Assembly: GCA_050230475.1 (NCBI GenBank)
Contig: JBFLGF010000160.1
Coordinates: 1-64,000 of the forward strand
DNA from: Ancylonema sp.
Taxonomy: Eukaryota
Direction: 5' to 3'
Length of the DNA: 64,000 nucleotides
Positions 7,239-64,000 of the stretch are shown piece by piece. The stretch's first letter is position 1. Every line of letters begins with the position of its first letter. The notes beneath the pieces were generated by a model. That model was given only the letters and a program-made list of their open reading frames with translations. It ran no database searches and was not told where the DNA came from. The translations under genes were made by a program, and so were the position numbers.

Positions 7239-10200
7239 TTATAATTATTACTACTACTTCTATTATAATAATTATTACCACTCCTGCTTTTCTTACTTTT
7301 TTCATCATAGTCATCCTCCTCATCCCATTCCCCTCCCCCTCCCCCTCACCATCCATAGTCATGGTCGTCATACGTCCCCATGATCTTCCTGGGGCACACC
7401 TTCGGGTCCATCCCTGAGGGGGGGAAGATGCCTTTCTCACCATGACCCGGACACATGAACTCGAGAAACTGAATCACCAACCAACCAACCAACCAACCAA
7501 CCAACCAACCAGTTAATGGAACAATCGACCAACCTACCCACAAAACCGACCAACCGACCAACCTACCAGTGCCACGAATACCAGCAGCGCCCTGACAGCT
7601 GTCAAGATCCCCCCCCCCTCCCCCTGTTCCCACCTTGGTGTAGTCTGGATTCGACAGCTGGCTCTGCATCCTGGCCTTCGCATGCGTCAGGTTTCCTGAA
7701 CCCCCTCCAATACACTCAGATTTGCACGTTATGCACAAAACGAGTTCACTGCGTCTCAACGAGAATGGGATCAGGATTACGTATTCAAATTTGTAGGAAT
7801 GACTTGGAAGGTTCCGATTTCTCCAAATGCTGCTGCTTTCTCTCCCAACTACTTCCACACCCCCCCCCCCCCCCAATATTGAGGGACACTGATGACTCCA
7901 AATCAGCGATAATGGAAGGAGTTCTAAATTCAGGGTTTCAGTTTTGAGGTCCACTCCTCCAGTGGACCTCAAAACTCCAGTGGCAGAGGATCCCCTCCCC
8001 CCTCTCCCCTCAAAACATCCCCCCTGACCCCTATACTTTTTACTCAGTCAGGGTTGGCCTGCAGGCTGGATGGGTACCCACCCGCCATGCAGTTGGAGGG
8101 CGGTTGGCACATCCAGGTGGCGGTGCAGTTGCACTGGGGGTGGGCTGGGTTAGCAGGGCAGTCCACGGAGGGGGAGTCTAGGTGCGCCATGTCGCCCGAC
8201 CTGAACCCCAACCCCGACGGTATAAATCCCACCCCACGATTGGTATGGGGAGGTAAGGGGGGGGGGGGAACTTGGCAGAAGTGTCTGAGAAAGCCTTTGG
8301 GAAAAAAGCGGTCGGTTTGCTGCTGCTGCAGACTACATTTGAAAGGGGATTCAAACACAGAAATGAATAACATGGACAGGCAGACACCTCGTACAAATAA
8401 TTACATGTACACATACAAATATAGTGATACATATGCATATACATATACATATACGTGTGCATGCACATACATATATACATATACATATCATATACATATA
8501 CATAAACACATACATAAACATACAAAAGTATATATATTTATATGTATATGTTTATCCAATACATATACATTTATATGCACATACAAATATGTATACATTT
8601 GGTATTCACATACATATACGTAGACATATACTTATACATGTACACACACATATACATTTATACATATGTATATCCAGTACATAAAGATATACATATACAT
8701 ACACATGCATGTATACATACATACACATATCATACGCACATATATATACATGTACATTTGATTACACATATACAGGGGTATATATATATACAACATAATT
8801 ACATACATATGCACATACATATACATGTAAAAATACATATGCATGTCCACATACACATACAAATACACATGAACATACACATACACCCATACATATCTGC
8901 GTACAGTCCCAACACAGACATCCTTCAGACACTCTCGCGCACCACATCACCCCCCCTCCCATACCCGATACCCGATACCCGTCCCCACTCCAGTGCCCCT
9001 CACCAAATCCACACATCTGGTTCACTGGGAATCACCCCCCTCGTCCACACAGGCTGTGGGCCGGTGTGGACAGCTGTCCCAGACCCGAACCCGATCCTCT
9101 CCACCAGTCGTTCGTGCGTCACCAACGACTTGATTTTGGCCCAGGATCCTCCCTTCGAGGCCGCCCCCCCCCCAGTCCCCGCCCCCGTACTGCCCATCCT
9201 CTCTGCCATGAGGTTGGGCATGAGGAACACGGCGTAGAGGGTGGAGGCGAAAGACATGGCGACGATGAGACCCATACCGACTTGAGTGGCTTTCCAGAAT
9301 ACCTGGAGGAGGGGATAGAGGCGAACCCCGTTATAGTCACATGCAGACAGGGTGACACTGCCGTTTTGGTGACCTCTTCTTGCGAGGTTACTAGATTGTT
9401 TCGTAGGTTGCGGTGTGAACACCGTTTCAGTGACATGGAATCGCGCATGTTCTCATGCCCCTAGAACGGGGTTGCTATGTCTGGGGAGGTGGGGTGCTCG
9501 TGATGGTGAGTACGCTCAGATTTAGCTGCTGCGAGCAGGTTGTCAGAAGCGCAGTGAAATAACTTCAAGTGGCAAAGCGCCGGTTTTTAGGAAGACAGAG
9601 CGCCGCTTTTACACCAAATTTTGTTTCTTAGAAGAACCGTGCAAAGTTGATTGAGACCCTTGACAGTTATCATATCCTGCCATCTTTCGACGAGCTGGAC
9701 ACCGATGGTTTTCCTCGTCACATGTGAACGGAGTACCCCAAACTGTGTATGCACGTGTGTGTGCGCGTGTGTACTCATGTGTGTGTGCACGGGTGTATGC
9801 ACGTGTGTGCACGTGTGTATACACTTGTGTATACACTTGTGTGAAAATGTGAGATACTGAGTTCCTGACTGCGTAAATGGTATGTGGGGTAGCCTGTGTA
9901 AAGCCACACTGAATATGACGCTAATAACACCAGTCCGCGTCGCATTGGCCAAAGGGCGCAATGGCCACGTAGTTGCACATGCCTGCATTCCTTTATAAGC
10001 GACACCATTGACACGTTCTGGAAATGTGTGAGGCACTGCGAGTGACGATATAAAGGGTCCTATTTTCGACATAATTGGTGTAAATTTGAAGCACTCGGTA
10101 CCAGCTCCAGCATGCAGCCCCAGCGAAGAATCTCACCTTCCTCCGCTTCTTCCGCCGCGGTGTGCTCGCCACGTCACCATGAACATACTGTCTGCCAAGG

Positions 10201-10280
10201 GACAATGCACTGTCACGCGAACTGTATCGGGGGCTAGGGCGGGCGGCATATTTCTTCCGTCCTCCACCAATTCCGAACAT
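4080..10280 (-). CDS. PhoD-like (alkaline phosphatase D family) metallophosphoesterase with an N-terminal transmembrane anchor; about 15 exons
   Basis: Spliced by hand with GT-AG introns: MFGIGG...KKRRK|VFWKATQVGMGLIVAMSFASTLYAVFLM (TM)...RIGFGSGT...PDVWIW|SGDMAHLD...GTYDDHDYGW|QHGDSRLP...IDVLLLDERYYRDP...VLGPEQRQW...GDDWECF...IITGDRGYSDIK...VMASGLT...PSFGMIE|IDWGQPSPIVKLQIRD...stop at 4080. Motif order matches plant/algal PhoD-like proteins. Confidence 0.88.
7070..7290. repeat. (TAC/TAT)n trinucleotide microsatellite in a PhoD intron
   Basis: Runs of tactactac/tattattat. Confidence 0.9.
8400..8890. repeat. (CATA/CATATA)n low-complexity repeat in a PhoD intron
   Basis: Degenerate acatat/acatac array that generates spurious His/Ile/Tyr-rich ORFs. 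Confidence 0.9.
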
Positions 10281-11394
10281 TTTTTAGACTATACAGTTGG
10301 CGCACCCCTTCCTCGTCAGATTACAAACTACACGAGACTACGGCGTTGTGGTTGAAGGTAATCTCGCACAGTTCGTTTTTTGGCTACCACCACGGACGTC
10401 GCAGTGGCCGTAGTGCACCAATCATTGTATTTCATGTGTGGCCTTGACGCTGCCAGAAGTCATTCTGGTCAGCGACTCCGCAATTAATGCTCGCGGTAGG
10501 GAGGTGCTCCGTTCTCTGTTTCCCTACCGCCTGCCGTTTCTCTCCCAAATTTTGTAGCTGGTTCCGTTGATGTATAAAGTGATATTCTAGGTTATATATT
10601 AGGGGGTTAGCTTTTAATAAGGTGGAACCCGCATATGGCGGAGAAATTTGATACCACTGTGCTAATTAACTCGCCCGCCGTAATCCAATAGAAAATCTTC
10701 CGCCCGACTTCGGAATTTCACCCCAAACATGTCTAAATAAATATTTTTCTTCCGGTCCAATCCCCGTACTGGGCACCGTAAATGATTTCTGTTTTTTCAA
10801 AACGAATGCGGCGCAACTGAATGGGCGATCGGGGCGGACTGTTAGTTTGTTAGTTACTTGGTTTCGGCAGAGAGTTTCTGTTGCTTTACAACGGTCTCTA
10901 GCACATGCAATCCATGCTAGGACGTTGCGATTGGAAGAGGGTATGGCTCTGTGACCTCCCCCCCCTCCGCGGGTGTTATTGTCATCAGCAGAGTTAAGGA
11001 TTGTTGCTCGGTTGTTTTAGGGTTGGGGTTGTTTTCCTTCTTCTGTTCCGTTAGGTTGGTACGATAACGTTGGTGTTGTACTCAGATGGGGTTCCCATCG
11101 TGCTTGAATAAAATGCGTCTTCCTTTTTTTTTTCCTTTAATTAATTTGTTAATGATTTGTAAGAAAGATTCTGAGAATCCGGTAGTTATCAGGGCTTACC
11201 TAGGTCGACGTCCCAATTCCTTAACTCGACGTCGAATTCTCAGCGAGTTCCTCGTGTTCACCCGCAAGTATGGACGGGGGCCGTAGATACGGCTCGAAGC
11301 AAACTAGATTTTTGAGAGCCGTCGATTCCACTTTGTCGTTTTCGTCCGAATCTTGCCCAAATTCCAAACGTCCCGTCTAGGCAGCGTGGCCGTC

Positions 11395-11838
11395 GCAGAC
11401 ACCAGTACCAGTGTCAAAAAACCCAGAACAGCATTTACCGTCTACGACGTGGCATCTTCCGACGCCAGTACGGGTGTTCAATTTCCTGTCCCAATTTCGC
11501 GGGCCATGTCCCGCAGATCGCGGTACCCCATCCACTAAGTTACTGACTGGTTACGACCGAAGCTGTAATGCGGCAGAAGTCAGCCCGGACTCAGCCGCAT
11601 GCTGGCAAGAAGGTTACTGGGTCTTGGATATCCGGCCGATCTCAGATTGGTTACAAGTTCTACTCCACGACCACATGGTAACCCCGGCTGTAACTAGTCT
11701 GTAACTTAGCGACCTACGCGATCGACGGGACACGGGCCGGGAAATTGGGCCAGGATAATTAACAGCGGTACTGGCGTCGGAAGGGGCCACGTCGCACTCA
11801 CAGACGGTAAATTTTTTGACACCGGTACTGGTGTCTGC
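11395..11838. mobile_element. Foldback/MITE-like element with ~140 bp imperfect inverted arms, between the divergent PhoD and TFIIIA genes
   Basis: gcagacaccagtaccagtgtcaaaaaa... (11395-~11540) is the reverse complement of ...ttttttgacaccggtactggtgtctgc (~11700-11838). Confidence 0.7.
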
Positions 11839-12129
11839 CATATTTTTCTTCCGGTCCAATATTACGAATTTAGACAGGTTTTGCTTAGTTATGTTATGTT
11901 GCCTATATGAAGAGCTCGTACTACGGGATGCCCGTAATCGCGGACGAGGAACAGTGCAGCGCTGTGGAGCTGCAGAACCTCCCCGAACCCTACACAGATC
12001 GGAGCTGCACCCTGACTTACTTTTCCCTCGCCTTTTTGTTAACCCCATTTCAAATTCTGGACTGGCGAAACCCCCTGGGCACATGAACCCCCCTGGGTCT
12101 CCTTCTGTTTCTCATCCCGCTTCCTGGAC

Positions 12130-15100
12130 ATGCCAGCAGTGAGCGATACTGGAACAAGAAAGCCCTCCAAGGACCGTCCTCGCCCATACGTGTGCTCTCT
12201 CTGCAGTTTTGCTGTATCGCGGCCGGCATACCTTATCTCCCACGAAAGAACTCATACCGCAGATGTGAGTATCGTCCGGCACATATGATATATACCATCT
12301 GTGGCCTGACCAAAGCTAGTCACGACGGCGCTGTCAGGACTGTTCTAGACTTATCAGTAAGCTTTCCAGTGCGTCATAAACTTCGTTGAGTCAGGTGCGC
12401 ATAATTGGGTTGGAACAGGGTACGATCCGCAGTTATTTGTAGCGCGCGTTCGACTTCTCCGGTAGCGTGTAGGACGCCAAGGGGCCAACAACTCGCTTGA
12501 GGCGTGAAGGACCATTACGTGAACTCATGACGACTGCTTGCGCTAAGTTGTCGGACGGGGTTCCGATGCAAAGTCTACGGATGCAGTTCTTGGTCCCACT
12601 TTTAGTTGTAGGGCGGTGTGAGAAGCTTGCGCGAGGCAGCTGCCCGGATCTTACTTCAAGGTTGAATAGGTGCTGTAGTGTGCCAAATATAACCCTACCC
12701 TCTCTCTTGGAAGTAACGTACCTGAGGTGGCTTTAAAAACTTGTTCTTATCGTCGGTTTCCTTAGCAACCCTCCGTCGTGCATCCTCTGCAGAGGCCCTT
12801 TACATGTACCTGGCCAGACTGTGACGCCGAATACAAACGGTCGGATCATCTGAGACGTCATATACAAGTACACGAACGGGCTGCAGAGTTTTTCGTAAGC
12901 TTCAATTCATTTAACTATACCTAGCTCTTGGATGGGATGGCAGAGGGAGCTACTTTGGTACCGCACTAAAAGCAGGACCTGCCCTGACAACATCTTTGTT
13001 TTGAATTCCCCGGTGTATCGTTCGGTATTCTCAGTCAAAATTGCAATTAGATGCAACCACCTAGCTGACCTCGTATCCATCGAGGGTCAGTGATCTGAAG
13101 TGGGACACGGACAACATCATTGTTAAACGATGTGATGTGCCCACTCTCTCTGCAGTGCACCTTCGCGGGCTGTGATGTTCAATGCACGACAAGTGGCAAC
13201 CTGCAGCGCCACCTGAATTTACACACCTCACCGTCTGAGCTGGCATCTTCTCGTCCAGCCAAAGCGTCCAGGACGCAATCCCCGTCCACCGACACCGGAG
13301 CAGCAGGGGTGGCGGAATCAGTGCAGCTTGTGCCTGAGCTGACCTGCCAGGTGGCAGCCTGTAAAGACTTTGGGAAGCGGTTCAGGACGGCCGCGCAGAT
13401 GACAAGGCATCATGCTGCAGAACACGGCGAGGGTAAGAGCACGAAGTGCACACATAACTGGGCAGACCTAACTCTTAATGATCAAAAATACAAAAGGCGG
13501 TTCATTGAAGTGTCCCGTAACGTGGTGGGCGAGCAGGACAGGGAGAGGGACAGGGGCAGGGACAGGGGACCGGGACAGGGTTCAACAAAGCAGCAATCAT
13601 GGGCAGGGTTTTGTTCTTTGAACCTGGAGTTGACCATGCTTCTATGAGTTGACCATGCTTCTATGTTGGGGTCCACCTTCAGACTACTGACCCCAAATCA
13701 GGGCTGGAGTCAGGGTCAGATTCGGGGGTCAGTGTCAGGGGCAAGCTGGGTTAAGCTTGTGGGGATTAACAGGGAGCCTGACTGTAGTCTAAGATATCTT
13801 CTACCATTCACTCTGTCCCTCACCTACCTGCTCACCTCCTCCCTTCCTCTGCCCCGTCCGTGCCAGCTGTCCAGGAGTATGCAGCGGTTATCTGCGGGTT
13901 CTGCGGCGGCTCCTTTCAGTCTGACTCCGCTCTCCAATCCCACCTCGCTCGGGAGCATACCCGGGTGGCGTGTCAAGAGTGCGGAACGGTTCTCGTGAGG
14001 CACAAACTGAAGAAGCACATGCTCATCCATAACCCGGACAGAGAAATGTTTCCGTGCCAGCAGCCGGGGTGCGATAAGACGTACAGTACGGTGCGTGCAT
14101 AAAGGGGGTGGAGATGGGTGGGGGGGAGGAAGGCACTTGAGTGGAAGCGTCACTGGTGTACTCTAACGCCTGGCGTTCTGTGGGTGTTGCTGTAGCTGTA
14201 GCTGTATCTGTAGCCATAGCTGTAGCAGGGAGCGGGAAATTGTTTTCAGGAGGGAGGGGGTGCTTGTTGGAGGGAGTAGTATTGTGTGGCCAGGGGTTCC
14301 ACTCCTCAGGGATAGGGGGATGAGGCAACAGGTGCAGTGGGACAAGGGATGGGGCTTCAAACTGAGTAGAACCTCAGATGTCTATAGAAGGCAGGGCATG
14401 TGGAGGTAGGGGTGGGGAGAGATTCCAGGTCTCTACAGGCTTCTCTACCGTTCCCCCCCCCCACACCTCCTCCTTCCCCTCTCCTATCATCTCCTCCCCT
14501 CCTCCCCTCCTCCCCTCCTCCACCCCCCTCACACTCCTCTCCACCAAACTCCTCCCCCCCCCCCCCCCCTCCCCCCCCCTTCTCCCTCCAGGCCTTCAAC
14601 CGCGAGCAGCACGTCCGTTCCGCCCACCGCCGCGAGCGTCCGTTTGAGTGCTCCTACGCGGGATGCAACCAACGGTTTGCATTTAAGGCCAGTCAACTGC
14701 GGCACGAGTCCAACGTGCACGTGGGCCCGCCCGCCGTGGGCCCCCCGCCAACTGTAAGCACCGTCCAGGCGTTCTTTTTAGGAGGCGGTAGTGGGGACAG
14801 GGGGCACAAATTTTGGGTTGTCTTGGTGAGGTGGAGGAGTAGGGTGGACAGGGGAGTCTCATGTGACTGACGCAAATCCCCAACTTTGCCTGCAGAGTTA
14901 CCTTCCCCCCCCAGAACAGTTGGAGGAGGAAACCCTAGGGGTGCCCGAGCAAGAGGGGGTGGCATCTGAAATGGGGGGGGCGTATGAGGGGGAAGGGGGT
15001 CAGGATGGGGGGGAGGCAGAGGATGGGGGGGAGGCAGAGGATGGGAGGGATGAGGATGGTGGGGATGAGACGGTGGATGTGGAGACAGTAGAGGGGGTGG

Positions 15101-15231
15101 GAGTGAAAAGGGGGCCAGACGAGTTGGGGGTTGGTGGGGAATTCGTGGGGGGGGAGTTCGTTGGAAACGGAGAGGGAGGGGAGGAGGGAGGGGAGGAGGG
15201 AGGGGGGGAGGCGAAGAGGGTGAAGGTTTGA
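12130..15231 (+). CDS. TFIIIA: Transcription factor IIIA (5S rRNA gene C2H2 zinc-finger factor); 8 fingers and an acidic C-terminal tail
   Basis: Exons 12130-12264, 12793-12894, 13156-13432, 13867-14090, 14592-14753, 14896-15231, all GT-AG and in phase. Fingers include RPFTCTWPDCDAEYKRSDHLRRHIQVH, CQECGTVLVRHKLKKHMLIH and RPFECSYAGCNQRFAFKASQLRHESNVH, in the same order as land-plant TFIIIA. Confidence 0.88.
12473..12660 (+). ncRNA. Putative plant 5S rRNA mimic (P5SM) structured cassette exon in TFIIIA intron 1
   Basis: Lies in the phase-0 intron immediately before the RPF-finger exon. Contains the 5S loop-C-like ggaccattacgtGAACTC and nested helices acaact(12488-93)/agttgt(12546-51), cgc/gcg and cgtga/tcatg, closed by gggc/gccc. 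Candidate acceptor tgtag|gac at 12472/3 and weak donor aag|gttgaa at 12660/1; boundaries are inferred. Confidence 0.7.
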
Positions 15232-15925: not shown

Positions 15926-17767
15926 CCATACTGGCCATACATAATGACCCGCAAATAATTATTGAAAGGGTGGGTCGGGTCAAATTAAATAATTTATTTT
16001 TTGGGGTTGGGTCACGCCATAAATTCCGAGATTCGGCGTAGTGGGTCAACATCATAAAATCGATTTTATTCTATTTTTTGCTCCAAATACATATGTGGTT
16101 GGATCCCGATCGATTGTGGTCCTGTAGCGGCGCAATCGATCGTCATTGGTTTCCTTTTCACACATTCAGGGAGGGAAATGGACATGTTGGGAAATAATTA
16201 AGGTGCATATTTTTCTTATATTTTTGCACCATGCACAAGCCAACATGATAAGCAACATAGAGTTTCCATAATTTTTAAACCACGATACACCCTTCAAAAT
16301 TCCGAAAAGTATGGAAAAACCGAAAAACCGAAAGAATGTGGATATCTCCACACACTCACATACAAGTCACTACTCGGTACACACTAATACTTTATCACTA
16401 TCTACTCTTCCCTACTCTTCCACTTCATGAGTCTGTGTTTAGGTCTAAGAGTCTGCTGCAGTCTGCGAGTTCGCAATCTAAAGCCGACAATGCACCCCAC
16501 CAAGATAAGGCTTTTGAACGAAAGTGAACGGATGAACGGCGAATAAATTTGAGATAAAGGAAAGTGAACGAGTATTTCAGTGTAAAGTGAACGGATGACC
16601 GGCGAATAAATTTTAGGTTTAGGAAAGTGAACGGATTTTATAGTATGAAGTGAACGGATGAACGGCGAATGAATTAGAGGTAAAGGAAAGTGAACGGGTT
16701 TTTTCGTGTGAAGCAAACGGATGAACGGCGAATGAATTTGAGGTAAATGAAAGTGAACGAGTTTCTTAGTGTTAAGAGAACGGATGAACGGCGAATAAAT
16801 TTGAGATAAAGGAAAGTGAACGGATGTTTAGTGTCAAGTGAACGAATGAACGGCGAAAAAAAACGAGGAAAAGGAGAGTGAACGGATGAACGGCGATAAA
16901 AAAATGATATAAAGGAAAGTGAACGGGTTTTAGAGTGTAAAATGTACGGATGAACGGCGAATGAATTCGAGGTGAAGGAAAGTGAACGGATTTTTCAGTG
17001 TAGAGTGAACGGATGAACGGCGAAAAAAATTGAGGAAAAGGAAAGTGAACGGATGAACGGCGAATCAATTTGAGATGAAGGAAAGTGAACGGATTTTTTA
17101 GTGTCAAGTGAACGGATGAACGGCGAAAAAAATTGAGGAAAAGGAAAGTGAACGGATGAACGGCGAAAAAAAATGATGTGAAGGAAAGTGAACAGGTTTT
17201 AGAGTGTAAAATGAACGGACGAATGGCGAATGAATTTGAGGTAAAGGAAAGTGAACGGGTTTTTCAGTGTGAAGTGAACGAATGAACGGCGAATAAATTT
17301 GAGGTAAAGGAAAGTGAACGGATTTTTCAGTGTACAGTGAACGGATGAACGGCAATTGAATTTGAAGTAAAGGAAAGTGAACGAGTTTTTTAGTGTAAAG
17401 TGAACGGATGAACGGCGAATGAATTTGAGATAAAGGAAAGTGAACGGATTTTTAGTGTAAAGTGAACGGTAGAGTTAAAAAAATAGAGGTCCGAAAGATA
17501 CCCCCCCAAGGTTTAGAGTGCCATGATTTGTACGGTACTCGTGCGGTGCAAATTAAAGGTGGTCAACATGTTGTTTAAACTTTAAAGGTGTTGTTTAAAG
17601 GTGGGTCATTTTGCTTGCAGGGTCACGGTATAATAAATATGTTTTACATGGGTCATAATTGTGGCTCACGGGATGATAAATATATTTTGCCCGGGTCAAG
17701 TTGGTGGGTCACGACAGAAATTAATCGTTTTTTTTTTAACCCGGGTCATTGTGTATGGCCACTACGG
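15926..17767. mobile_element. Non-autonomous Tc1/mariner-like (pogo-like) element with ~26 bp imperfect TIRs enclosing a minisatellite
   Basis: Left end ccatactggccatacataatgacccg; right end reverse-complement ccgtagtggccatacacaatgacccg. Right flank is TA, left flank CA (possibly a decayed TA TSD). Confidence 0.6.
16515..17469. repeat. Tandem minisatellite with ~62-64 bp units (some ~40 bp), built on AAGTGAACGG
   Basis: Repeated aaagtgaacggatgaacggcgaataaatttgagataaaggaaagtgaacg...agtgt. Confidence 0.95.
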
Positions 17768-31500: not shown

Positions 31501-34500
31501 TAGGGATAACCGCCAGCATTTCTTCTTCACTCAGCACCCTGAAATCCTTTCCTTCGATGATCACGCCCGAGGGTGTGAGGATGCCGCACTCGCCTGCGAT
31601 GGCCTGAGCAGTCTTGGGGTTGTCCCCCGTAACCATGCGAACCTGAAGCGCCGTGAAGAAAGGACTCGTTTAGGATTGGCTCTCTCTCGCTCTCCCTCTC
31701 TCTCTCCCTCTCCCTCTCACTCTTCTTTCCTCGCATTTGAAGCCTACCCCTTAGAGAAACCTCCCCCCGTTGATTTATATCTTGTCTACCTTGAATGTTC
31801 CTCTCTCGTCCTGCCAATGGAGATCCACAGGTAGTACTGAATGCTTTCCAAAGCAACCAAACTTAAAATAATACACTACCCTCGAGGTACACCTTCTCCT
31901 CCCCCCCCCCCCCCCCCCCAACCTTCACTCCCGCCGCCTGACACCTTGCCACGGCTTCCGGTACACCTGGACGACACGGGTCCTGCAAACACATGGACAG
32001 AACAGTAAGACCCTCTTGATATAACAACAACAAGTTTTGATACAGCAGTCGCAGTCGCACCCCCCCCAGCGATTTCTCACTTTGATTCCCACGATCGCTA
32101 GCAGTATGAGGTCGTTTTCTGGCAGCTCCCATTTCGACCTGTCCTCGCACACTTCAGTCGCTGCAAGCGGTCGGTATCCGAAAGCGATACATCGCAGACT
32201 GGCCCCTGCCATGTCATCCAGAAGCTTCTGCATCTGCTCCTTCTGCAGTCCACGACAGGCACCCACCACATGTTAGAAAGAAGAAGAAAGAGGGGAAGAA
32301 GAATGAGAATGAAAATGAGAATGAGAATGAGAATGAGAATGAGAATGAGAATGAGAATGAGAATGAGAATGAGAATGAGAATGATAATGAAAATAAGGAT
32401 AAGAATGAGAATAGAGGAGAACAAGTGTGAGCAAAAGCACAGGAATATGATATCATTATTGGGCCAAAAAAAAAAACAAAAAAACAAAAAAAACAAAAGA
32501 AAACTCCAGAATTCTACCACCCTCGAAACCCCAAAATAAAAACATCTCCGAAAAAAATTCCAAACCCTGACACCCCAAAACTCCAAAGCCCTAGAGTGTT
32601 CAAAACCAAACCTCATCTTCCCCCCCCTACCCCTTCCGCAGTAAACTGCCTCAGCTCCCCGTTCTGATCCGCTGTATGGGTGCAGTTGGCCAGAATCATT
32701 TCGGCCGCCCCCTTCCAATGGACCACCTGAAGGTCGTCTGCTAACCGGGTGGCCACACCCGCTCTCTTTTTGGTGGAATTGAAAGCCTCCAGCGTTAAAA
32801 TCTCGCTCTCGGCCTTAGCAGCATTGAAGTCCATACCCATCTGATACCCCAACCCCCAACCCCCAACCCCGTATATTCCAACCCCTTCAGAGACTACTTC
32901 AAATACATGATCGAAACAGCGGAGAGAAACGAATATATCTACCTATCTTCTGTATCTTCCTTTTTTATATTATTATCATTATTTCGGCCTAGGCGAGGGG
33001 CAAAACAGGGAGGTGCAAGCTCAGAGGGGCTTTTCATTTTTTTGCGAATTATCAACCTTTGGTTGGTATGGTTCTGACCTTGAGGCCCCAGTTGATGAGG
33101 GCCGTTTCGGTTGGGCTGGCGGTCACTTCGGTAGCAGTCCCATCCTGAAGAAGAATAGAAGAAGAAGAATAAGTACCCCGCACACACTCGCTCACCCTCT
33201 CCACCCTGGCCCTCCCCTAAAAAAAATCCCACTCATAAACTCCCCTTCAATACAAATCCCGTCTTTTCTCATACCTTCGGCACATACACGCTCGCCATAC
33301 TGTTCTGCGCCACCGCGTCAAACAAAATCTGCTTCGTCCTGGGGCTGATCCTGGTGATGTCCGTGTCGTCCTCCAAGGCTCCCAGGGTCCAGCTCTTCAC
33401 CCCCACCATCTTGTTCATGGTCAGGGTACCCGTTGTGTCGCTGCAGATGGTGGTGGCAGACCCCATGGTCTCACACGCTGCCAGGTGGCGGACCAGGGCC
33501 TTGTCGTTCATCATCTTGCGCATCGAGTACGCCAGGCTGGAGGGAGAAACCCCCGACAAACCCCGAAGAAAAACGGACAATTTCAGCTGGGTAGTGGGTC
33601 CCGGAACGGGATCGGGGAGCGAATTGACATCGTTCACCAGCCCGGCTCCCTACACCATGAAGTCAATATCTGTATCTGTCCTTTAACCCGAATTTCTCCC
33701 AAGATCTTACGTGAGTGTGACGGCCAATGGGAGGCCTTCGGGCACCGCCACGACTATAATAGTGACCTGAAGGGGGGGAAGGAGAAGACAATCGCAAATC
33801 AAAATCAGGCTATCTGCCACGTGTACGGCCCTCACCAAAGCAGCACATCCTTTCCCCCGCCCCCCATTACTCACCGCAATGGAGAATATGTCCACCACGT
33901 CTTTGATGACCTTGGACGCCCCCTTGTGCTTGTAGTCCACAAAGTATCGAACAATGAGGATGATGAACACAAGGACAGCAACCCCAAGTCCTACTAGACC
34001 GATACTCGTGGCAACACCATTCAGCCGCACCTGAACCCAAGCAACCAACCAGGCATCAAGATGGGGCAAAGGATGCACCGCCTTCGATTCGAACTGCCAC
34101 TCGAGCAAGTACAATATCTCTATACATTGAAGCCTGTCCTGAATAATACTGTTCTACTCAATAACCTGTCTTATATGATAACCTGTCTTATCTGATAACG
34201 TGTCTTATTCCGCCCGATTTCGGGTCACCACCCCAGAATTCTGGGCTGCCGTGTCAATCAATAACCTGTCTTAAGTAATGAGTTTTCCCACTCCCGAAAG
34301 TATACATCAAGACAGGTTTTCCTCTATGTACTCCATTCTCCTTCCTCTCACCTGCAGTGGCGTCTCCTCATTGTCGTCTTCACTGAGTGTGGCCATGATA
34401 CGACCCCACTCGGTGTTGGTACCCACGCCCGTGATCTGACCACCCCCCCAAACCCAACCACCAGACCTAGTCAGGACTACCGGACAGTATCTACAGAGAC

Positions 34501-37500: not shown

Positions 37501-38021
37501 ATTTGTGCAATTTCTTCGCATACTTGTCGACCTCTGTGATCTCGCGGCCCTTTCCTAATCCCTCTACACACTTGGTGGTATACCGGAACCGCCTGGCCGC
37601 ATTGAGAGCTAGAGTGGCTTTCTGAAACCAGAAAATCAAATGAACAGAGTCGCGAAGTCAACGTTGCATTCAGGGCGATAGAATGCCGTCGAGGCCCTGT
37701 TCTGTTGCGCAAGAATGCTTTTAATTGATTTGAAGACACGTATTTTGCCCTAGTGCACAATTCATATTCCATACACTTCGGACACGCAGCATTATCGTCT
37801 CCAGAAATATACGGTACTCCATAAGTCTTCCGACGTACAAGCTTCGCCACAAAAAAATAAAGTAAATGGAAAAGGGTTGAACAAATAGAAATCTTCGATT
37901 GTCGTCTTTTCATCCCGCTTCGTTGGTTTTCAAAAGCACTTACCCGCCATCGCATCAACGCCTCCTTGTTTGCTTTGGGCGCAATGTTAAAAACATCTTT
38001 CTTTCCTGGCTCCTTCTCCAT
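28563..38021 (-). CDS. ACA: Autoinhibited P2B-type Ca2+-transporting ATPase (ACA8/9/10-like), more than 25 exons
   Basis: N-terminal calmodulin-binding [55 protein letters not shown][T][66 protein letters not shown]. 3' end is either the stop at 28747 or, via one more intron, 28563. Confidence 0.95.
32300..32410. repeat. (GAGAAT)n hexanucleotide microsatellite in an ACA intron
   Basis: Perfect atgaga tandem run. Confidence 0.95.
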
Positions 38022-38826
38022 CGCGATGCTACAGGAGGCAGCTCAGAAGAACACGGCGGTTGATCCGAAATTACTGCTTCTGGGCCGACTATTTAGCGGA
38101 AGATTTCAATTGCAAGGCCACGGCCGTTCGGACTCGCCAGCCCACACAGACCACCTTGACAGCAAAATCCAGCTACAGGTTCAACAAACGAAGATAGACA
38201 GGACAGGATTCCACCTCTACCTCGGCGCAGAGAGGCTCTAACCAACCCACAGTCTTGCAATCCACGCCGCCTGATGAAAGAATCTGGGAGCGCAAACCGC
38301 GTCAGGTGGTGAGTTGCCGCCCAGGAGATGCGGAGCAATTTCCCGTGAGAACGCTAATAGGCGCGTGATCCTTTCACGCGTGCACAAACTCGGGACATAA
38401 ATGACATACGTGGCAAGGCGTAACGGGCGGAAGTTTCCACACGCCTGCATGCGCACCCGGTGCCGTACGATGAGGAAATCGACAGAAAGCTGACTAGGCT
38501 ACACGACAAATCTAGGCCCGGATGACTGTTGTATTTATAGCCAATCACCGACGATCCTGGAAGGCGTTGATTGGCAGCAGCCAAAGAAATGGGGCCAGGT
38601 AGATAAAGTGCATTCTGAGTAGTACGGCCCTTCCAGCCATGCTCGTTACGAGCTGCAAAATTCAGGCACTTGTTGGTCAAATCGTAGCTGCGCTACTGGT
38701 AACCCGCGACGTGATGTCACCTCCTTTAGGATGACACCTCCCTCTGGGCAACTATCCACCGACACAGATTCTACGCGCACCAGGTGTAACCCTTCAGGAT
38801 TTTGTCGAATTTTCGTGTCACCACTA

Positions 38827-45500: not shown

Positions 45501-48500
45501 GTGGTGTTGTTTTGACCTTAAACACATATCTGCACCCCACAGCCTTTTTACCTGGAGGAAGCACACACACCTCAAAGGTGTAACGTCTCCAGGGCTGCTA
45601 ACTCCTCTCCACAATGGCCCTGTCCCACTGGTCCCAGTCTCGCCTCATCATCGCATGGTTGAGTGAGTGGCTCGGAGGAGTTGCTGTTAGATGCTACGCA
45701 CGCGTAGCCCGGATCCACAGGACCGTTGAAGCCAGTGTAGAAACTGCTGGGCTCCCACTCAGTCGCTTAGTTGGCGTGTGCGAGCTGCGTCCATCAAACT
45801 CCTCCCCATCACATCACATGAGGTCCCCGTACTCTGCAAAGTTGGCTCGCCTTCTAGCCATCACCCGATCAGCTACGCTGCCAGGCTCCCCCACTTCTGG
45901 GTTCGCACCCCCTCCTTGCACCTCCTCCTCCCTGCATCTCCACCTCCTGCGTTGTTGATCCCTGATTGGCTGTCAGACAGCACAATCGTGGCGTTAGGGA
46001 CCTCAGCAGCTTGTGGCTGGAAGTTGTCGTGCGGATAGTCGATGGCAGCTGCCTGGCTCAGGGACTGCTGCTTCTGCTGGTGCTGGGATTGGCTGCAAAA
46101 AACTGCTGGCATCGGTTGCAGAACTGCTGCTGCCGGCATGTTGGGGTGGACTGCTGCTGCTGGCATGTTGGGGTGGACTGCTGCTGCTGGCACAACTGCT
46201 GCAGCCTGGTTCATCTTCAGGGGTCCGGGAAAAAGGTAGAAAAAGTGTTTTTCTGCTGCCTCCTGAATCTGGGGAGCTCTCCCCCCCATCAGCTTCGGGT
46301 ACCCCGGCACCTCCTCAAAGAACCTCACGTCCATGCGTGATATCACCCCAGCTCTATGGGGATCGAAAACATTGTAGCCTGCACTCCCCGCAGCCATCCC
46401 CAGAAACACACCAAAGCAAGTACGAGGGGCAAACTTGTCCCCTTGACTGTTCTTTTCCCCCCAACCTTCAGATATGACCAGACACCCGAAATTATGACTT
46501 TTGTTAACTGTCATTCTTCCCCTCCCAGACCTCAATTGGAATTTTCAAAGCGACTTTGGGTGTTCTGTTCCTCAACCAATTTGCATGTAATAATGCCACA
46601 TCCCAATAATACTTCGGTAGACCTGACCAGATTAAGATGCATCGCATTTTTTCTGTCAATGTTCAATTCAGTCTTTCACAGATTCCGTTTTGTTCAGGAC
46701 TATATGCTTCTGTGGTTTGCTTATCAATACCCTTCCCCCCACAGTAGTTTATCCAGTCCTGAGAATACTCCCCTCCCTTATGTGTCCGTATAGACTGTAG
46801 GGGCAAACCTGACTATACCTCGAGCAATTGTATAGTGACTCTTGCTCGGTTCAGTGCTTCATCCTTTGTTTTTAACAAGCTGACAAATGACAGACGTGTG
46901 GATACCTCTATCCCTGTCTGAGCATATGTATACCCTCCGTTAGCTGACCTGACAGACAGTGGTCCAATGAGATCCAGGTGGATGCGACCCATCTTGGGGC
47001 ATGTCCCCAGATCCGCACTGACCTTAGCATGACTGAGCTGAGTCATCTTCCCCTGACAAACAAACCTGACATCCCTTTACTTCAGTTAATTCCCCCTGAC
47101 TTAACTCTGGGATGTCCACCACGTCTGGCGAAATCTGACATCACATCAGAACTGGGGTGACCCAATTTGTGATGCCAGACCATGCCTGTGGACAAATTTG
47201 CTGTAGTATCATGAGATCCAGGCATAACGATTGTGGCAGCAAGCAGAGTCAGACACTAGGCTGCTGCAGCACATCAGCCCATTTCACATTTCCCTTGTTT
47301 AAAATTCAGGACCGGGCAGCTGTAGAAAGCTCAGCCCACCTCTTCTGACGAGGCCCGATGTCGACACGAGGGTGCAGGCAAAGGTTGGGCCGTGGATCGA
47401 GCTGAGTGGCTGCACAAAGAAAGCGTCGCCATTCCTCACTCGGATGTGCACGAGACCAGTGCCCTCCACCTTGTGTGACGAGCCGTCAGCAGTGGTGATG
47501 AAGGCCTGCTGCGTGCTCAGGGTAGGTGTGTACTCCACAAAATGTTCACGAGCCGTGAAAATGTGGTCGGTAGCACCTGAATCCAGGATCAGGGAGTCTG
47601 AGTGAGGACCAGCAGACAATGCCCGGGCAACCTCGAACGAGAAAGCACCGAAAGCTAACTAATCCACATTAGCGTTGAAAGGTTTGTCAGCAAAGCGAGC
47701 AAGTCTAGCTTGTGCATCAGCCCTCCTAGCAGCCTCTGGGTTCATTAGAGCCATGTCAGATGTTCTTTTTCTGCAATGTTCAATTGTGTGACAGACAATG
47801 TTGCAATATCTGCACTTCTGCCTCCCCCCTGAACTTCCCTGAGTAGCGTGCGCAACATTTCCAGCTGCTGGTGACGGCGTAGGGCATTGAGCAGCTCGGT
47901 GGCCTGCCTGGTGGCACGTGACATTTCCATGAGCTCCCGCATGGCCTCCGCCAGGAGCTGGTGAAGGGCAGTTCGCTCTGATGTGCCCGAATTTGTGGCA
48001 GCCGAAGCATTCGACGCCTGCAGCGTCTCTGCGACCAGCTCCAGTCGCACCACCAGATCTGCTGCTACCTCCAGCTCCATTCCCCCCCCCAGGTCCACCC
48101 ATAGTGCGCCTGGTGTCCTCCGGGCAGCGCCTCCCTTTTTCGATCGTTCAGCTCTTTCCGCACGTCGTCGCGAGCAGCGCACTCACGATGTGTGGAATCG
48201 TGAAGAGGTGTGGCGACGACTCGGACCATGGCATCAGCGTTGAAACCATCGGACTGTAATGCGTGTTCAACGAATTCAGCACGTTGATCGCCTCCTTCGT
48301 CGGAGATACTGGCGCCCCAAATTCTTAAGGTCCTGAATGCAGCTGCTGCAGACGACGCTTGACGTACACGTTGTGGAGGTCCTCTGCCTCCGTCTGAATG
48401 ATAGCGCTCAGCAATGCCTCCGTATTTGCGATCTCGATCGCACCCTGCACCTGGTAGAATGTCCGCAGAGCATCGCACATGCCGGCAGCTGTTGTGCAGT

Positions 48501-51413
48501 CCGTGACGTGCGTCAGCGCCGATGGCCCCAGGTGCTTCACGATGTAAGACATAGCAGCCAGATTGTCCTCGTCCCATTTCTCGAGCTCCAGAAGCTGCTG
48601 GGAAATCTGCTGTTGTCTGACCAACACTTCGACATCCACGTCGATCCCCCTGGCGGCTAAGTGCAGCTCGTTATCAGGTGTGAGTGGAAGGATCACGTCT
48701 GCGCGACACTTTCGCGGCAAACTGTCCCAGTCCATCACCACACGGTGCAGTTTCTTGTCCGCCAGCCCATATTTGACCTTGAAGGCCCATCCTGTATAAT
48801 CAGCTCCAGTAAATTGAGGGATTTGCGACCTATCCGACATTATGGCAGCTATTGTGTAGGACTTCTCAAAAAATTCTCGCACAGCTCGAGTTCTCAGTGC
48901 AATTCCTGCATGCGCACTCAGCTCAGAAACTTGCAGCGCAATATCAGAATTACGTGCAGACCCGAACAACCAGAATATATTTGCGCTCACTGAGAATCCG
49001 TTCACAGAGTTACCGCAGCGAAATAGCGTGGAGCCTTTAGTTTTTAACCTACACGGCGTCTGAACTAGACTGCACGTGGGCCCATAACCTATAAGCTTTT
49101 GAGTGATTAGACTTGCCGGAACTAATTTGGTGGGCGACAAAACGACCCGTACGCAAAAGGATCTCGATCACTGATGATCAACGAGACAGGAGTTGCGTGT
49201 GTGGAACGAATTATTATTGTGATTGCATCGGGGATGGTAATCGGGGATGCGCTTTACAGATTGTTGCGTGCCGACGGTCGGCAACAATTGACCGTCGGCC
49301 TATCCATAGACTGACAGCTCTTCTAAATGTCAACGGCACCACTGCCGGACATTTCTGACACGACTATAAACAAGCCACACAGTCACGACGCTTCGACCAA
49401 ATAACGTCTCTAAGCAGCGTCGGAAACATGTCAGGTGCCCGGGCACAAACTTGCCCGGCCCCGCATACAGGCAGGCACATCTAGATAGAATATTGCTCCC
49501 TCCCGGTTAGAGTAACCGGTCGGTCACTACTGGACTAGCACGCATAACATATGGCTATCCAAAATATTCTAAACACCACTCCCCATCCTCGCCTCCTTCC
49601 TCCCCCACCCTCCTCCGCACCCCCCCCCCCCTCCTCCCAGACCCCCTCACATCCCCCGGCAGGAGCGGCAAAAACCCCAAAAACCCCAAAATCCGCCTCA
49701 AAATCATCCCCCTCGACCCCCCCCTGAACAGAACCGCCTCATAACGGGGGACCGCCCGGCGAGCCGTGCCCCATATGGGTAACGCCTCGATTGCCCCACC
49801 CCCCCCCGCCCCCGCCCCCGCCCCACCCCCGCCCCTACGCAGCCCCCTCCTCCCCCTCTGCCACCTCTTTGCTCGCCCCAGCCGCGTATCCCCACCCTCC
49901 CCAACCCCCGCCCCCTCTGTTGGTGGAGAACCCCCCCCCCCCCCCCCTCTGCAACTTCCCCCCCCTTGTCCGCCCCCGCCCCCCCCCCAGCCCCCCTTCC
50001 GGCTCAAAGCGGCTCAAACAGCCATCTACGAATTTTCTCCACCCAGGGGCGGTTTTCGGATAAGGAGCGCCATTTCTGGGACCGGGGCGGGGGGGGGGGG
50101 GGGGGGGGGGCGGTTAACTCCTTTATTTTATTATTTTATTTTATTTTACGTGGCTGTATGTCGTCGGGGGAAACCTGGTAGAGGAAACTTTGTCATACAA
50201 AGACACGCTGAAAAAAATAAATAATTTATTTAGGTGAGTTTTGGATTGCAAAACCAACAAAAAATCAAAAAAAATAAAAACGCTTGTTTCGATCTGCCAA
50301 TACAAGATGTGGTGCACATGGAAAACAAATAATAACAAAATAATCATTTTTAGTAACATTCATCTCTCTTTTCTTGTTTTTTTTTTCCTTTTCTTTTGAT
50401 ATCGAGGGGGACTAAACCGTAGACACACCCCCCCCCTTCATTACTTTTGATGACCATGCTTTTGGTTGAGTGAGTGTTCCCGTGGCCTGACGCAAAAACG
50501 CTTCCAGGGCGGTGGACTGAAGGAAGTCGAATTTGGGTCTGAACAGAAACCCCTCCTCCCTCTCCGTGGTGTAACCGCGGCTGGACACAAATGCGGGTAC
50601 CGAATGCGGTTATCGAATGCGGTTTAGGAGAAAATCTGGTTATCAAACTCGGTCATCGAATCCGGTTTTTAAATGCGGTCATCTAATCCGTTTTGGACAT
50701 GGCATTCGGGGCTGAGGAAAAATTGGGGTTGTGAGCACTGGTCGGCTCGACAGACCACATGTGCGCAAAGACAAGGTTATAGTTACGGGTTACGTATGTA
50801 AGAGTAACTTGAAACATGTATACATGCATGTGTTTGTGCATGTGTGAATGCATACAGGTTTGCTTGTTTCTGGTATGTAAATCGTACCAGAAAATAATGA
50901 GCATACTCCCAAAAAAAAATCTACATGCATATGCATGTGCATGTGATTACACAAAGTACAGTTGTATTGCAAATATATATGCTTACGTTTCTGCGCACAC
51001 AAGTTCATTTGTATATTTATGCATACGTACACGATTGCATACGTCTATAAATGTAGACACCTGTATGTACATGTACACATCTAACATACGCGTAAAATGA
51101 CCCCCCCCCCCAGTTTCTCACTGAAAGATAACCGCATTCGTGTTTGCCGCCTTCTCCCAGTCCACGTCAATGGGAAGGGTGAGAAGGTAATCCGAGTTGA
51201 GGGCCGCGGTGAGATGCAGGTCTCTCCCAGACAGCCCCTCAAACTGTGCGCTCAGTAAGAGGCGGAGGAAGTTGGACTCGAATCGAGCACTGGCCATTTC
51301 GATCCTGGGGGGGAGAGAAGAATCGGTACATCGCGAAACGATGACGTCGTCGGGGTCAGGGTGCCACGTGGCAGAACGGGCATGTAGGGTGGAGGCTCTG
51401 TGGAGACACAACT
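42572..51413 (-). pseudogene. DUF3754-family gene fragment interrupted by a Copia element
   Basis: Exon peptides FESNFLRLLLSAQFEGLSGRDLHLTAALNSDYLLTLPIDVDWEKAANTNAVIF (51413-~51122), RGYTTERE..FLFRPKFDFLQ (~50580-50445), LPIWGTARRAVPRYEAVL (~49790-49580), EREEYLR|PRYVERIAMGDIW (42930-42572) match the plant DUF3754 family as recalled. No 5' or 3' exons found in the window. Confidence 0.75.
42931..49575 (-). mobile_element. Full-length but frameshifted Ty1/copia element with half-tRNAiMet PBS
   Basis: LTRs 49575-49090 and 43403-42931; PBS GGTTATGGGCCCA at 49089-49077; PPT GAGGGGGTG. Gag MSDRSQIPQFTGADY with knuckles, protease LDSGATDH, integrase [19 protein letters not shown] and RNase H in Copia order. 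Confidence 0.95.
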
Positions 51414-51692
51414 CTGTGTAGGGGAACCCTTTTTAAAGGCACAAAAAAGTTGTGGCAAGCTGAGGCCCTGAAACTGATACAAACTTATATTTACTTTATA
51501 GGCACACCTGTGTATGAAGGTGCCAGAATATTCCAAACAAAAATAAACATTTGTTTGAAGAGGTTGGACTCTCCCCTCTCCCAAAGCTGCATTTTCTCTA
51601 TACCCGAAATCGGTACTTCACAAAGCAACACTCCTTCCCCTCCCCTCCCCCACTTACTCCTTTCTTTCTTCCTCCACCCTCCTCCTTGCCTC

Positions 51693-52610
51693 TGTATGAA
51701 TTATATCGGATAGCCATGCGTGCTAGTGTGCTAGTCCGGACTACCGGTTAGCGTAACCGGTAGGAGTCCTAGGGTGTGCTTATATTGAGGGGCCGGATTT
51801 TTGTCCGGGCACCCGATTATGACGTTTCGATGGTGCCGTTTGTGGCACGTGTGGTCGAGATGTTTCCGGCTCTAGACGTTATGTCTTGTCAGACTGTCCG
51901 GCATGTGCCGTTGACATGCTCTGATTGTTGTTGTGTTTTGATAGGCCGACGGTCCGCAGATACGACCGTCGGCACACTTTGTAGATTCTTGTTTTGGACG
52001 AGGCATCGTGGTATACCTTACACGATAATTTCTTCCAACACAATACTTGTCATTTAATTATAATTCTTCCAACACAATACTTGTCATTGATCATCTCTGA
52101 GAGACGAAGTTCCTTGTACGGAAAGATTCACACGATCTTGCACACCTATCACGTAATATCGCTAAAAGGTTATGGGCCCACAGGCGGTCTAGTTAAAGAC
52201 GCTCTGTCAATAACTACAGGCATTCCACGCGATTCGCTGCTAAGAGACTCTAAGGGTGGGGTTATTAAGTACTGCACGTAATCTTTCGAATTGCGTTGCC
52301 AGTGACCTGCACGAAACACGTTGAAGGAAGCAGCTGAGAGCTGATCATAATATATATAGCTGCTGCCTAAAATGACGGAAAAGTCATACATTCCGGTCTT
52401 CACAGGAGCAGACTACAAGAGCTGGGCTTTCAAAATAAAGTTCGGTCTAGCTGACAAGGAGTTGCATGACATTGTCATGGATTGGGGCGAATCCCCGAGG
52501 CAAGCGAAACCTGTCGTGTCTCCACGCAGGGATGCTGCGGACGTCGCTTGAACGGTCACGGCACGCACCCAACTCATCGGTCGACAGACTCTCGTTCGAG
52601 AGGCCTGGGT
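51693..52610 (+). mobile_element. Truncated Copia copy (LTR 51693-52167, PBS, gag start); same family as 53624-60186
   Basis: LTR similar to 53640-54080; ctaaaa|GGTTATGGGCCCA; ATGACGGAAAAGTCATACATT gag start at 52372 with internal deletions. Confidence 0.9.
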
Positions 52611-52763
52611 CGCCTCACCTTTTTACAATTCCTCACATCGTGATTGCGCTGGGTAATTATGTGGTGGTGGTATGTCACCTTGAGGTGAGTCAAGTAACAA
52701 ATAGCGTCGTCGTGGGCAGTTGGTCATTGTATGTTATGTTTGTCCACATAAATAACATCGTAA

Positions 52764-53345
52764 TTATTTTTGAATGACATCGTATGGTTCCACAAAATCA
52801 AGTATGTTTGGTGCCTGATGTGAAGCAGACTCGAGTGGTGTCGAGGTACATGAAGGTGAAAGGTCTCGGTTATCAATGGAATACCCCAGGTTATGTTCGA
52901 TCTTCGTGACTGTTGTAGTCGTTCGAAGCCTTGTCATGAGTTTTTTCAACACTCGTTCAAGTTGTTTATAAAAAAATTGAACAGATCCTACAGAAATGTC
53001 CGACTGAGGTGCCATAACTGTGTAAGCTGATGGATCAACTTCTTCAATATTAGTCTGCGCGTATCGTGTGAAAGACAATGTAGCTTTCCACACCTCCTCT
53101 GCTTGAAGCAACTGAATGGTGAGATGACGAGGAATATGCTCCTGCCACTCCTGCTTCCTGTATGTTTGTAACATCTGGACGTGCGCCAATGTTTGTTCCC
53201 ACATATGAGGTGGTAATAGGTGTACCATTTGGTTTTGTTCCTCAATTTGACTTTGAATGAGTCCTAGTTTGCAAAATCGAAAATCTTGTCCCACATCTGT
53301 CGTTATGGAAAGCACATCTTTCTCTGATGTTAAGTTGTTCAACAT
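52764..53345 (-). other. 193-aa ORF of unknown function adjoining a gypsy-type leader/LTR-like region
   Basis: Uninterrupted ORF directly downstream (minus sense) of the sequence homologous to 41100-41340. No motif recognised. Confidence 0.35.
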
Positions 53346-53623
53346 GTATTCAATTTTTTATGCTCTTTCAACCCAATGTCCATGATTATAAACGTCTATG
53401 ATTGAATTGTGATATGAAAAGTGTATATCGTCAATGAAATAGTAACTAGGAAAGACAAAGGATGTTCAAGAAAAAAAAAAAACGGTCACAATGTTTGTTC
53501 CAAACGTTTAGTTATTGAAATCAAGGTCTTCCGCTGTCAGATTGAAGTAGTATTGCAGATTGAGTCTTTGCTGAGATATCAATATTATATCTATCACACG
53601 TCTCACCGGTCTGGTGAAATTCA

Positions 53624-61258: not shown

Positions 61259-61269
61259 TGACAGGACAA

Positions 61270-63982: not shown

Positions 63983-64000
63983 GACCCAATTCCTACACTA

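What the first reader, a model, noticed from the sequence alone, without database searches (positions are those of the whole stretch)
12466..12660. 5S rRNA-mimic (P5SM-like) poison exon in TFIIIA, apparently outside land plants
Seen: the 528-nt phase-0 intron between the ...HERTHTAD and RPFTC... exons holds a structured ~190-nt block. It has a 5S loop-C-like GAACTC, nested helices (acaact/agttgt, cgc/gcg, cgtga/tcatg, tcgga/tccga, closing gggc/gccc) and candidate splice sites. Including 12473-12660 (188 nt) frameshifts the message to a TGA at ~12851; the alternative acceptor at 12465/6 gives an in-exon TGA. Established: land-plant TFIIIA has a 5S-derived cassette exon in this same intron; ribosomal protein L5 binding promotes skipping, and inclusion triggers NMD, tying 5S rRNA synthesis to free L5. 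It was described as land-plant-specific and absent from chlorophytes. Inference: if this genome is a streptophyte alga, the exonized-5S feedback switch predates land plants.
Basis: partly seen in the sequence, partly recalled or inferred. Interest (0 to 1): 0.9.

Follow-up and report, generated by a model that had tools for sequence, protein, structure and literature searches.

The report
Algal TFIIIA intron, faint 5S echo
This alga, a close relative of land plants, has the same intron in its 5S-RNA transcription-factor gene that carries a 5S-RNA-like splicing switch in land plants, but the stretch inside it fails the three structural model tests that recognise the real switch, so it is most likely ordinary intron, with a smaller chance of being a heavily changed version of the switch.

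Summary
The setting is confirmed. The gene is TFIIIA (8 fingers), and the 528-nt phase-0 intron sits where land plants carry the P5SM poison exon. A neighbouring Ca-ATPase groups with Mesotaenium and Closterium, apart from land plants; ice metatranscriptomes hold the intron at 99.5-100% identity. The element itself is not confirmed. Covariance models of land-plant P5SM, plant 5S rRNA and the helix III/loop C hairpin give it about 2 bits or less, whereas P5SM loci score 19.5-37 bits on the 5S model and 5S scores 38-41 on the P5SM model. It folds no better than shuffles (z +0.9; real P5SMs -2.1 to -4.9). It lacks loop E and all six near-invariant P5SM words tested. No inclusion junction was seen, in very sparse data. 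A faint signal remains: GCGTGAAG, GAACTC and TGAGAAGCT lie in P5SM order, the last 42 nt before a GTT donor as in plants (colinearity p about 0.003-0.03), and the proposed acceptor is the best internal AG. No algal homolog could be fetched. Verdict: probably ordinary intron (0.5); a diverged working switch older than land plants remains open (0.3).

The parts
12130..12264 (+). TFIIIA coding exon 1; one C2H2 finger equivalent to finger 2 of Arabidopsis TFIIIA; ends HTAD
   Evidence: junction matches Arabidopsis HSLE|RSFTC in the supplement of PMC3378873
12265..12792 (+). 528-nt phase-0 intron at the position that holds P5SM in land plants
   Evidence: the same AG|R-x-F-x-C signature retrieves land-plant TFIIIA introns with P5SM
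12473..12660 (+). Candidate cassette exon (unproven): acceptor TAG at 12470-12472, donor GTT at 12661; inclusion would give a TGA at 12851
   Evidence: no junction seen in RNA contigs
12502..12509 (+). GCGTGAAG, identical to the 5' strand of P5SM helix P1 in 9 of 26 plant sequences; its partner word TCAC is missing
12503..12529 (+). Possible loop-C-like hairpin CGUGA/UCAUG around a 17-nt loop holding CCA and ending GAAC; not the favoured fold and not found by the helix III/loop C model
12481..12597 (+). 117-nt (5S-sized) stretch closed by an 8-bp helix in the minimum-energy fold; folds as one long irregular hairpin, z -1.37 with ends chosen after the fact
12619..12628 (+). TGAGAAGCTT, like the 3' strand of P5SM helix IV/loop E, 42 nt before the GTT donor (42-50 nt in 23 plant sequences); the 5' AGUA partner is absent
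12793..12894 (+). TFIIIA coding exon 2 (RPFTC...DHLRRH finger)
13156..15231 (+). Remaining predicted TFIIIA exons 13156-13432, 13867-14090, 14592-14753, 14896-15231; 412 aa in all, 8 fingers and an acidic tail
   Evidence: colinear with plant locus L056, E 1.8e-27

Best explanation
The block is most likely ordinary intron sequence in the TFIIIA gene of a streptophyte alga, inside an intron whose position is shared with land plants. The intron is predicted to be removed whole (12264 joined to 12793), giving an intact 8-finger TFIIIA. The short words shared with P5SM and 5S would then be chance matches. On this reading the intron is older than the 5S insertion, and the L5-controlled exon was either gained on the land-plant stem or has been lost in this lineage. 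Shown: gene, intron position, algal lineage, failure of the model tests. Inferred: constitutive splicing, absence of L5 control.
For: P5SM model R1 (26 plant sequences): best score in the intron 1.9 bits, E 0.85; 16 other places in the window score higher; controls 5S 38-41 bits, divergent plant copies 23-25 bits. Plant-5S model R2: at most 2.2 bits against 19.5-36.8 bits for 10 of 10 plant loci. Helix III/loop C model R3: the hairpin is not among 8 hits at E up to 10 in the intron. nhmmer profile: none of 6 hits at E up to 50 lies in the intron. Folding z +0.94, +0.63, +0.36, -1.37 against -2.07 to -4.86 for 6 of 6 plant P5SMs. Six words present in 25-26 of 26 plant P5SMs are all absent. Whole-profile alignment p 0.04-0.51 over 12 settings; domain profiles p 0.09-0.98. 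The two registers that look best (5S-like 12481-12597, P5SM-like 12502-12660) are incompatible in their 3' halves. Similarity to the more divergent 5S of locus L036 is at chance, p 0.5-0.9. One RNA-run contig reads through both proposed acceptors unspliced.
Against: Best hits of three of four P5SM domain profiles fall in the right order, two on the same diagonal: 1 of 330 shuffles strictly, 11 of 330 allowing any three. Conserved P5SM 6-8-mers are enriched, p 0.016-0.021. A loop-C-type hairpin of 5 bp arises in 6 of 20000 shuffles and 0 of 236 background windows (pattern written after seeing the sequence). One angiosperm-type 5S (L014) aligns end to end, p 0.006-0.01. Acceptor 12472 is the best internal AG, and the donor has the rare +3 T seen in 22 of 24 plant P5SM donors but in only 2 of 31 modelled donors of this genome. 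The models are built almost wholly from seed-plant-like sequences and could miss a long-branch algal form. Both RNA-run contigs of this organism in the searched stretch fall on this intron.
Confidence: 0.5

Rival explanations
1. A strongly diverged but working P5SM homolog. The 5S piece was exonised before Zygnematophyceae and land plants split. Free L5 would bind the loop-C-like hairpin (12503-12529) and favour skipping; without L5, 12473-12660 would be included, shifting the frame to TGA 12851 and sending the message to NMD. All steps are inferred from land plants.
For: [quoted passage not shown]
Against: Fails three covariance models; no loop E, no GGATCCC, no P1 partner; no folding signal; P5SM-register fold 19.9 kcal/mol above the minimum; GAACTC to TGAGAAG spacing 98 nt against 56-68. 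L5 binds the real 5S, which should hold a working mimic close to it, as in all 10 plant loci tested.
Confidence: 0.3
2. A decayed relic of the P5SM exon: homologous to the land-plant element, but no longer folded or L5-controlled.
For: Explains both the ordered words and the lost structure. Partial loss happens: loci L038, L060 and L085 keep only the loop E/helix IV part in this intron.
Against: A released sequence should lose its words quickly (inference), so the loss would have to be recent; no intact algal version is on hand to show descent.
Confidence: 0.12
3. An unrelated unproductive-splicing control of TFIIIA (retained intron or independent poison exon) that uses this intron without mimicking 5S.
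For: Two RNA-run contigs 99.5-100% identical to 12241-12524 are unspliced, while about 7 kb of intergenic DNA is nearly uncovered in the same runs; block GC 0.55 against 0.50 and 0.47 in its flanks.
Against: The runs were chosen for holding this stretch; two short contigs from one study can be pre-mRNA or DNA; 5 of 14 other introns hold an equally GC-rich 188-nt stretch.
Confidence: 0.08

Closest known systems
Plant 5S rRNA mimic (P5SM) cassette exon of land-plant TFIIIA (Hammond et al. 2009; Fu et al. 2009; seen only through PMC3378873 and reviews)
   Same: Same gene, same phase-0 intron before the R-x-F-x-C finger; similar possible exon length (188 nt against 175 nt in Arabidopsis); premature stop on inclusion; weak AG|GTT donor; words GCGTGAAG, GAACTC and TGAGAAGCT in order.
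   Different: No covariance-model match, no stable P1-P2-P3 fold, no loop E AGUA, no GGATCCC, no TCAC partner of P1; about 30 nt longer in the middle; no inclusion isoform seen; host is an alga.
Plant cytosolic 5S rRNA (Rfam RF00001)
   Same: A 117-nt stretch closed by an 8-bp helix; CCA...GAACUC as in loop C; gapped end-to-end alignment with one angiosperm-type 5S at p about 0.01.
   Different: No RF00001 hit, no hit with a plant-5S model, no three-way junction in the favoured fold, chance-level similarity to the more divergent 5S of L036.
Ordinary spliceosomal GT-AG intron at a position conserved among streptophytes
   Same: Strong GTGAGT donor and TGCAG acceptor; base composition and fold within the range of the neighbouring introns.
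   Different: Longer than most introns modelled in the window (85-569 nt) and carrying a faint ordered set of P5SM words.

Membership tests
P5SM | Lies in TFIIIA, in the intron before the R-x-F-x-C finger (finger 3 of Arabidopsis) | tested here: met
P5SM | Match to a P5SM covariance model | tested here: not met
   1.9 bits, E 0.85 in the intron; controls 23-134 bits
P5SM | Detectable similarity to 5S rRNA | tested here: not met
   at most 2.2 bits with R2 against 19.5-36.8 bits for 10 of 10 plant loci; pairwise p 0.006-0.9 by reference
P5SM | Closing helix P1 (GYGUGA with UCACRY) | tested here: not met
   5' strand present at 12502; TCAC[AG] absent, present in 26 of 26 plants; forced register 19.9 kcal/mol above the minimum
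P5SM | P2/L2 hairpin mimicking helix III and loop C (GGAUCCC...GAACUCC) | tested here: inconclusive
   GGATCCC absent and R3 does not find it, but a 5-bp hairpin with CCA...GAAC can form and is rare in shuffles
P5SM | P3 arm with loop E (AGUA/GAA) and helix IV | tested here: not met
   no AGTA in 12473-12660; domain profile p 0.84-0.98; only the 3' word TGAGAAGCT is present
P5SM | Folds by itself into the conserved structure, better than shuffles | tested here: not met
   z +0.94 to -1.37 against -2.07 to -4.86
P5SM | Flanked by usable splice sites; inclusion gives a premature stop | tested here: inconclusive
   sites plausible and both acceptors give a stop; use not shown
P5SM | Exon-included transcript exists and is an NMD target | tested here: inconclusive
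   no junction in two runs with only two short contigs on the intron; NMD not testable
P5SM | Conserved with covariation in related species | not testable with these tools
   no algal locus recognised among 76 fetched; no whole genome held
P5SM | Binds ribosomal protein L5, which promotes skipping | not testable with these tools
   needs a binding assay and a splicing reporter
Plant TFIIIA | Colinear array of C2H2 fingers with the TFIIIA spacing | tested here: met
   28% identity over 244 aa with L056, E 1.8e-27; 8 fingers, the first plant finger not found

The most novel reading that the evidence does not exclude
A Zygnematophyceae alga keeps a working, strongly rewired 5S-derived poison exon in TFIIIA that retains only the loop-C hairpin and a few 3' words. 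The L5-TFIIIA splicing feedback would then be older than land plants, and L5 control would need neither loop E nor the P1 helix.
Probability: 0.3. Interest if true: 0.7.

Novelty: not a real feature. Interest (0 to 1): 0.38.

Why it matters
[quoted passage not shown] I found no paper that looks at streptophyte algae. When the 5S piece entered TFIIIA is therefore open. [quoted passage not shown] If the block is ordinary intron, the switch arose on the land-plant stem or was lost here; if it is a diverged switch, the origin moves back and the minimal L5-binding unit is smaller than thought. One alignment across the published streptophyte-algal genomes would decide it.

Tried and rejected
Land-plant origin of the window: rejected by the Ca-ATPase tree. 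Known RNA family in the intron (5S, snoRNA): no Rfam hit beyond unrelated matches of about 14 bits; Rfam detected only 3 of 10 plant loci as weak 5S matches (20.4-28.4 bits), so this negative is mild. Repeat: the intron matches nowhere else in the window; no whole genome was held. A TFIIIA-7ZF-type start inside the exon: no ATG between the last in-frame stop (12619) and the donor (sequence). Constrained folds used coordinates off by one; one search replaces them. The splice models include two acceptors off by one and probably one wrong Ca-ATPase boundary, so scores are rough. Search for TFIIIA relatives with exon 13156-13431: 70 candidates, none scored. The profile search over protein representatives was still queued at the end, and the protein atlas gave no answer. 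Viral contigs and prokaryote assemblies held no TFIIIA or P5SM match. Uncovered TFIIIA exons in the two RNA runs are not taken as evidence. Ultraconservation of the intron between two ice algae was considered, since most Ca-ATPase contigs come from a relative at about 83-92% identity; it is set aside because a 98% piece at the Ca-ATPase 5' end shows the window's own kind is also present. Earlier findings: nothing on this locus.

Full report
Gene and intron. The gene starts at ATG 12130. Exon 1 ends at 12264 (HERTHTAD), the next exon starts at 12793 (RPFTC), and the intron between them is 528 nt, phase 0. Six predicted exons give a 412-aa protein with eight C2H2 fingers and an acidic tail. It aligns colinearly with a plant TFIIIA from locus L056 (28% over 244 aa, E 1.8e-27). 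The junction corresponds to Arabidopsis HSLE|RSFTC, which flanks the P5SM exon in the supplement of PMC3378873. Including 12473-12660 leads to a TGA at 12851, and including 12466-12660 to a TGA at 12505.

Organism. No whole genome is held. The Ca-ATPase at 28-38 kb scores best against Mesotaenium endlicherianum (1077 bits; best land plant 931). In a FastTree tree it falls in a clade with Mesotaenium and Closterium at support 1.000, apart from all land plants. The tree used 49 of the 120 listed proteins (fragments, fused forms and many near-duplicates left out) and 805 columns; it is midpoint-rooted, holds no named Chara, Coleochaete, Klebsormidium or chlorophyte sequence, and the pairing with Mesotaenium alone has support 0.725. 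Two ice metatranscriptome runs of one study hold pieces of the intron at 99.5-100% identity. So this is a streptophyte alga, very likely Zygnematophyceae. A glacier alga such as Ancylonema is my inference; bioRxiv 2023.10.20.563300 (section 5 and passages) recognises two such species and places Ancylonema in the Zygnematophyceae. The species is not established.

Reference set. A degenerate pattern for the exon that follows the intron fetched 76 metagenome loci. Most are land-plant TFIIIA with P5SM upstream; none was recognisably algal. From 29 distinct P5SM segments I aligned 26 (three near-duplicates left out) and built model R1. Plant 5S genes came from 37 loci in prokaryote assemblies; 20 of 20 tested are RF00001 at 96-116 bits, and 14 went into model R2. 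Model R3 covers helix III/loop C from 9 P5SM and 5 5S segments.

Model tests. R1 gives the intron at best 1.9 bits (E 0.85), and none of its 16 window hits lies in the intron. Among 15 control loci it scores plant P5SM at 70-134 bits (some close to or in the training set), 5S at 38-41 bits, and three divergent plant copies at 23-25 bits; five loci without the intron or of other genes gave nothing and one gave 10.6 bits. R2 gives at most 2.2 bits (none of 27 window hits in the intron) but finds 10 of 10 plant loci at 19.5-36.8 bits. R3 does not list the proposed hairpin among 8 hits in the intron or 18 in the window; it was not run on held-out controls. An nhmmer profile gives 6 hits at E up to 50, none in the intron. 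Rfam finds nothing, but it finds only 3 of 10 plant loci.

Structure. The 188-nt block has z +0.94; sub-stretches give -1.37, +0.63 and +0.36. Six of six plant P5SMs fold into the expected structure at z -2.07 to -4.86. The ensemble pairs GAACUC with GGGUUC at p 0.92. Six words found in 25-26 of 26 plant P5SMs, including the loop E word and GGATCCC, are all absent.

Signals in favour. GCGTGAAG (12502), GAACTC (12521) and TGAGAAGCT (12619) occur in P5SM order. The last lies 42 nt before the donor, against 42-50 nt in the 23 of 26 plant sequences with a donor. The other spacings are 19 nt against 22-27 and 98 against 56-68. Conserved 6-8-mers are enriched at p 0.016-0.021 over background windows. 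Domain profiles are not significant singly (p 0.09-0.98), but three of four best hits are colinear: 1 of 330 shuffles strictly, 11 of 330 for any three. A loop-C-type hairpin appears in 6 of 20000 shuffles at 5 bp and 90 of 20000 at 2 bp; that pattern and the arrangement patterns (0 and 6 of 20000) were written after seeing the sequence. One angiosperm-type 5S aligns end to end at p 0.006-0.01, another at 0.03-0.06, and the more divergent L036 at 0.5-0.8 against background windows. Whole-profile alignments give p 0.04-0.51 in 12 settings. Acceptor 12472 is the best of 32 internal AGs, and 8 of 31 modelled acceptors score lower; the donor has +3 T, as in 22 of 24 plant P5SM donors. These signals overlap, come from many tests, and point to two registers that disagree in the 3' half.

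RNA. One contig covers 12304-12524 and reads through both proposed acceptors unspliced; another covers 12241-12424. No junction was seen. In the same runs most Ca-ATPase contigs are spliced and come from a relative at about 83-92% identity, one piece at 38016-38200 is 98% identical, and about 7 kb of intergenic DNA is nearly uncovered. The intron contigs may thus be unspliced RNA, but the runs were chosen for holding this stretch, and the data can show neither inclusion nor its absence.

Literature. Seen: PMC3378873 (abstract, introduction, results sections, references, supplement parts 1-2 of 6); passages of PMC3355732, PMC6164485, PMC4374538, PMC3729371 and bioRxiv 2025.11.25.690383. [quoted passage not shown] Hammond 2009, Fu 2009 and Barbazuk 2010 were not held, so which algae they examined, and their alignments and supplements, I did not see; that these were chlorophytes is recalled. 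Seven searches listed no paper on P5SM in streptophyte algae; TFIIIA with Klebsormidium gave 0 papers.

Verdict. The block is not a member of the P5SM family by the features that could be tested, and is most likely ordinary intron (0.5). A diverged working homolog (0.3), a relic (0.12) and an unrelated splicing control (0.08) remain; these odds are my judgement. One alignment across algal genomes would settle the question.

Noticed in passing
L060:522-654 (-), L038:708-845 (+), L085:75-221 (+): Three plant TFIIIA-like loci hold, in the same intron, only the helix V/loop E/helix IV part of 5S (up to 36.8 bits with the 5S model) with a degenerate P2/loop C: a truncated P5SM variant.
   Followed up: partly
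L056:395-518 (+): A P5SM much closer to 5S rRNA than the angiosperm-type ones (RF00001 28.4 bits; loop C nearly unchanged), in a contig with short flanking introns; a second partial match lies just upstream at 347-387.
   Followed up: partly
L088, L090, L079: Two P5SM copies in tandem, about 600-800 nt apart, upstream of the same TFIIIA exon.
   Followed up: no
L077, L086, L100, L101: TFIIIA-like genes with no intron and no P5SM before this finger, preceded by an acidic run; possibly retrocopies that escape the switch.
   Followed up: no
window 33278-33538 (-): The Ca-ATPase phosphorylation motif reads CSDTTGT where P-type ATPases have DKTGT (recalled consensus); a real variant or an assembly error.
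   Followed up: no
window 12130-15231 (+): This TFIIIA has eight fingers; the first finger of land-plant TFIIIA was not found upstream within 10000-12130, and the C-terminus is a long Glu/Gly-rich tail.
   Followed up: partly
window 16521-17469: Complex satellite-like array built from 40-, 63- and 103-nt units sharing AAGTGAACGGATGAACGGCG.
   Followed up: no
L001-L037: Plant-type 5S rDNA sits on short contigs of many GTDB prokaryote assemblies (37 loci), evidently contamination.
   Followed up: partly
window 45800-64000 and 235-888: Copia-like (46-49 kb, 54-59 kb) and gypsy-like (61-64 kb) retroelement frames, the latter ending in a PHD-finger-like cysteine pattern (read by eye).
   Followed up: no
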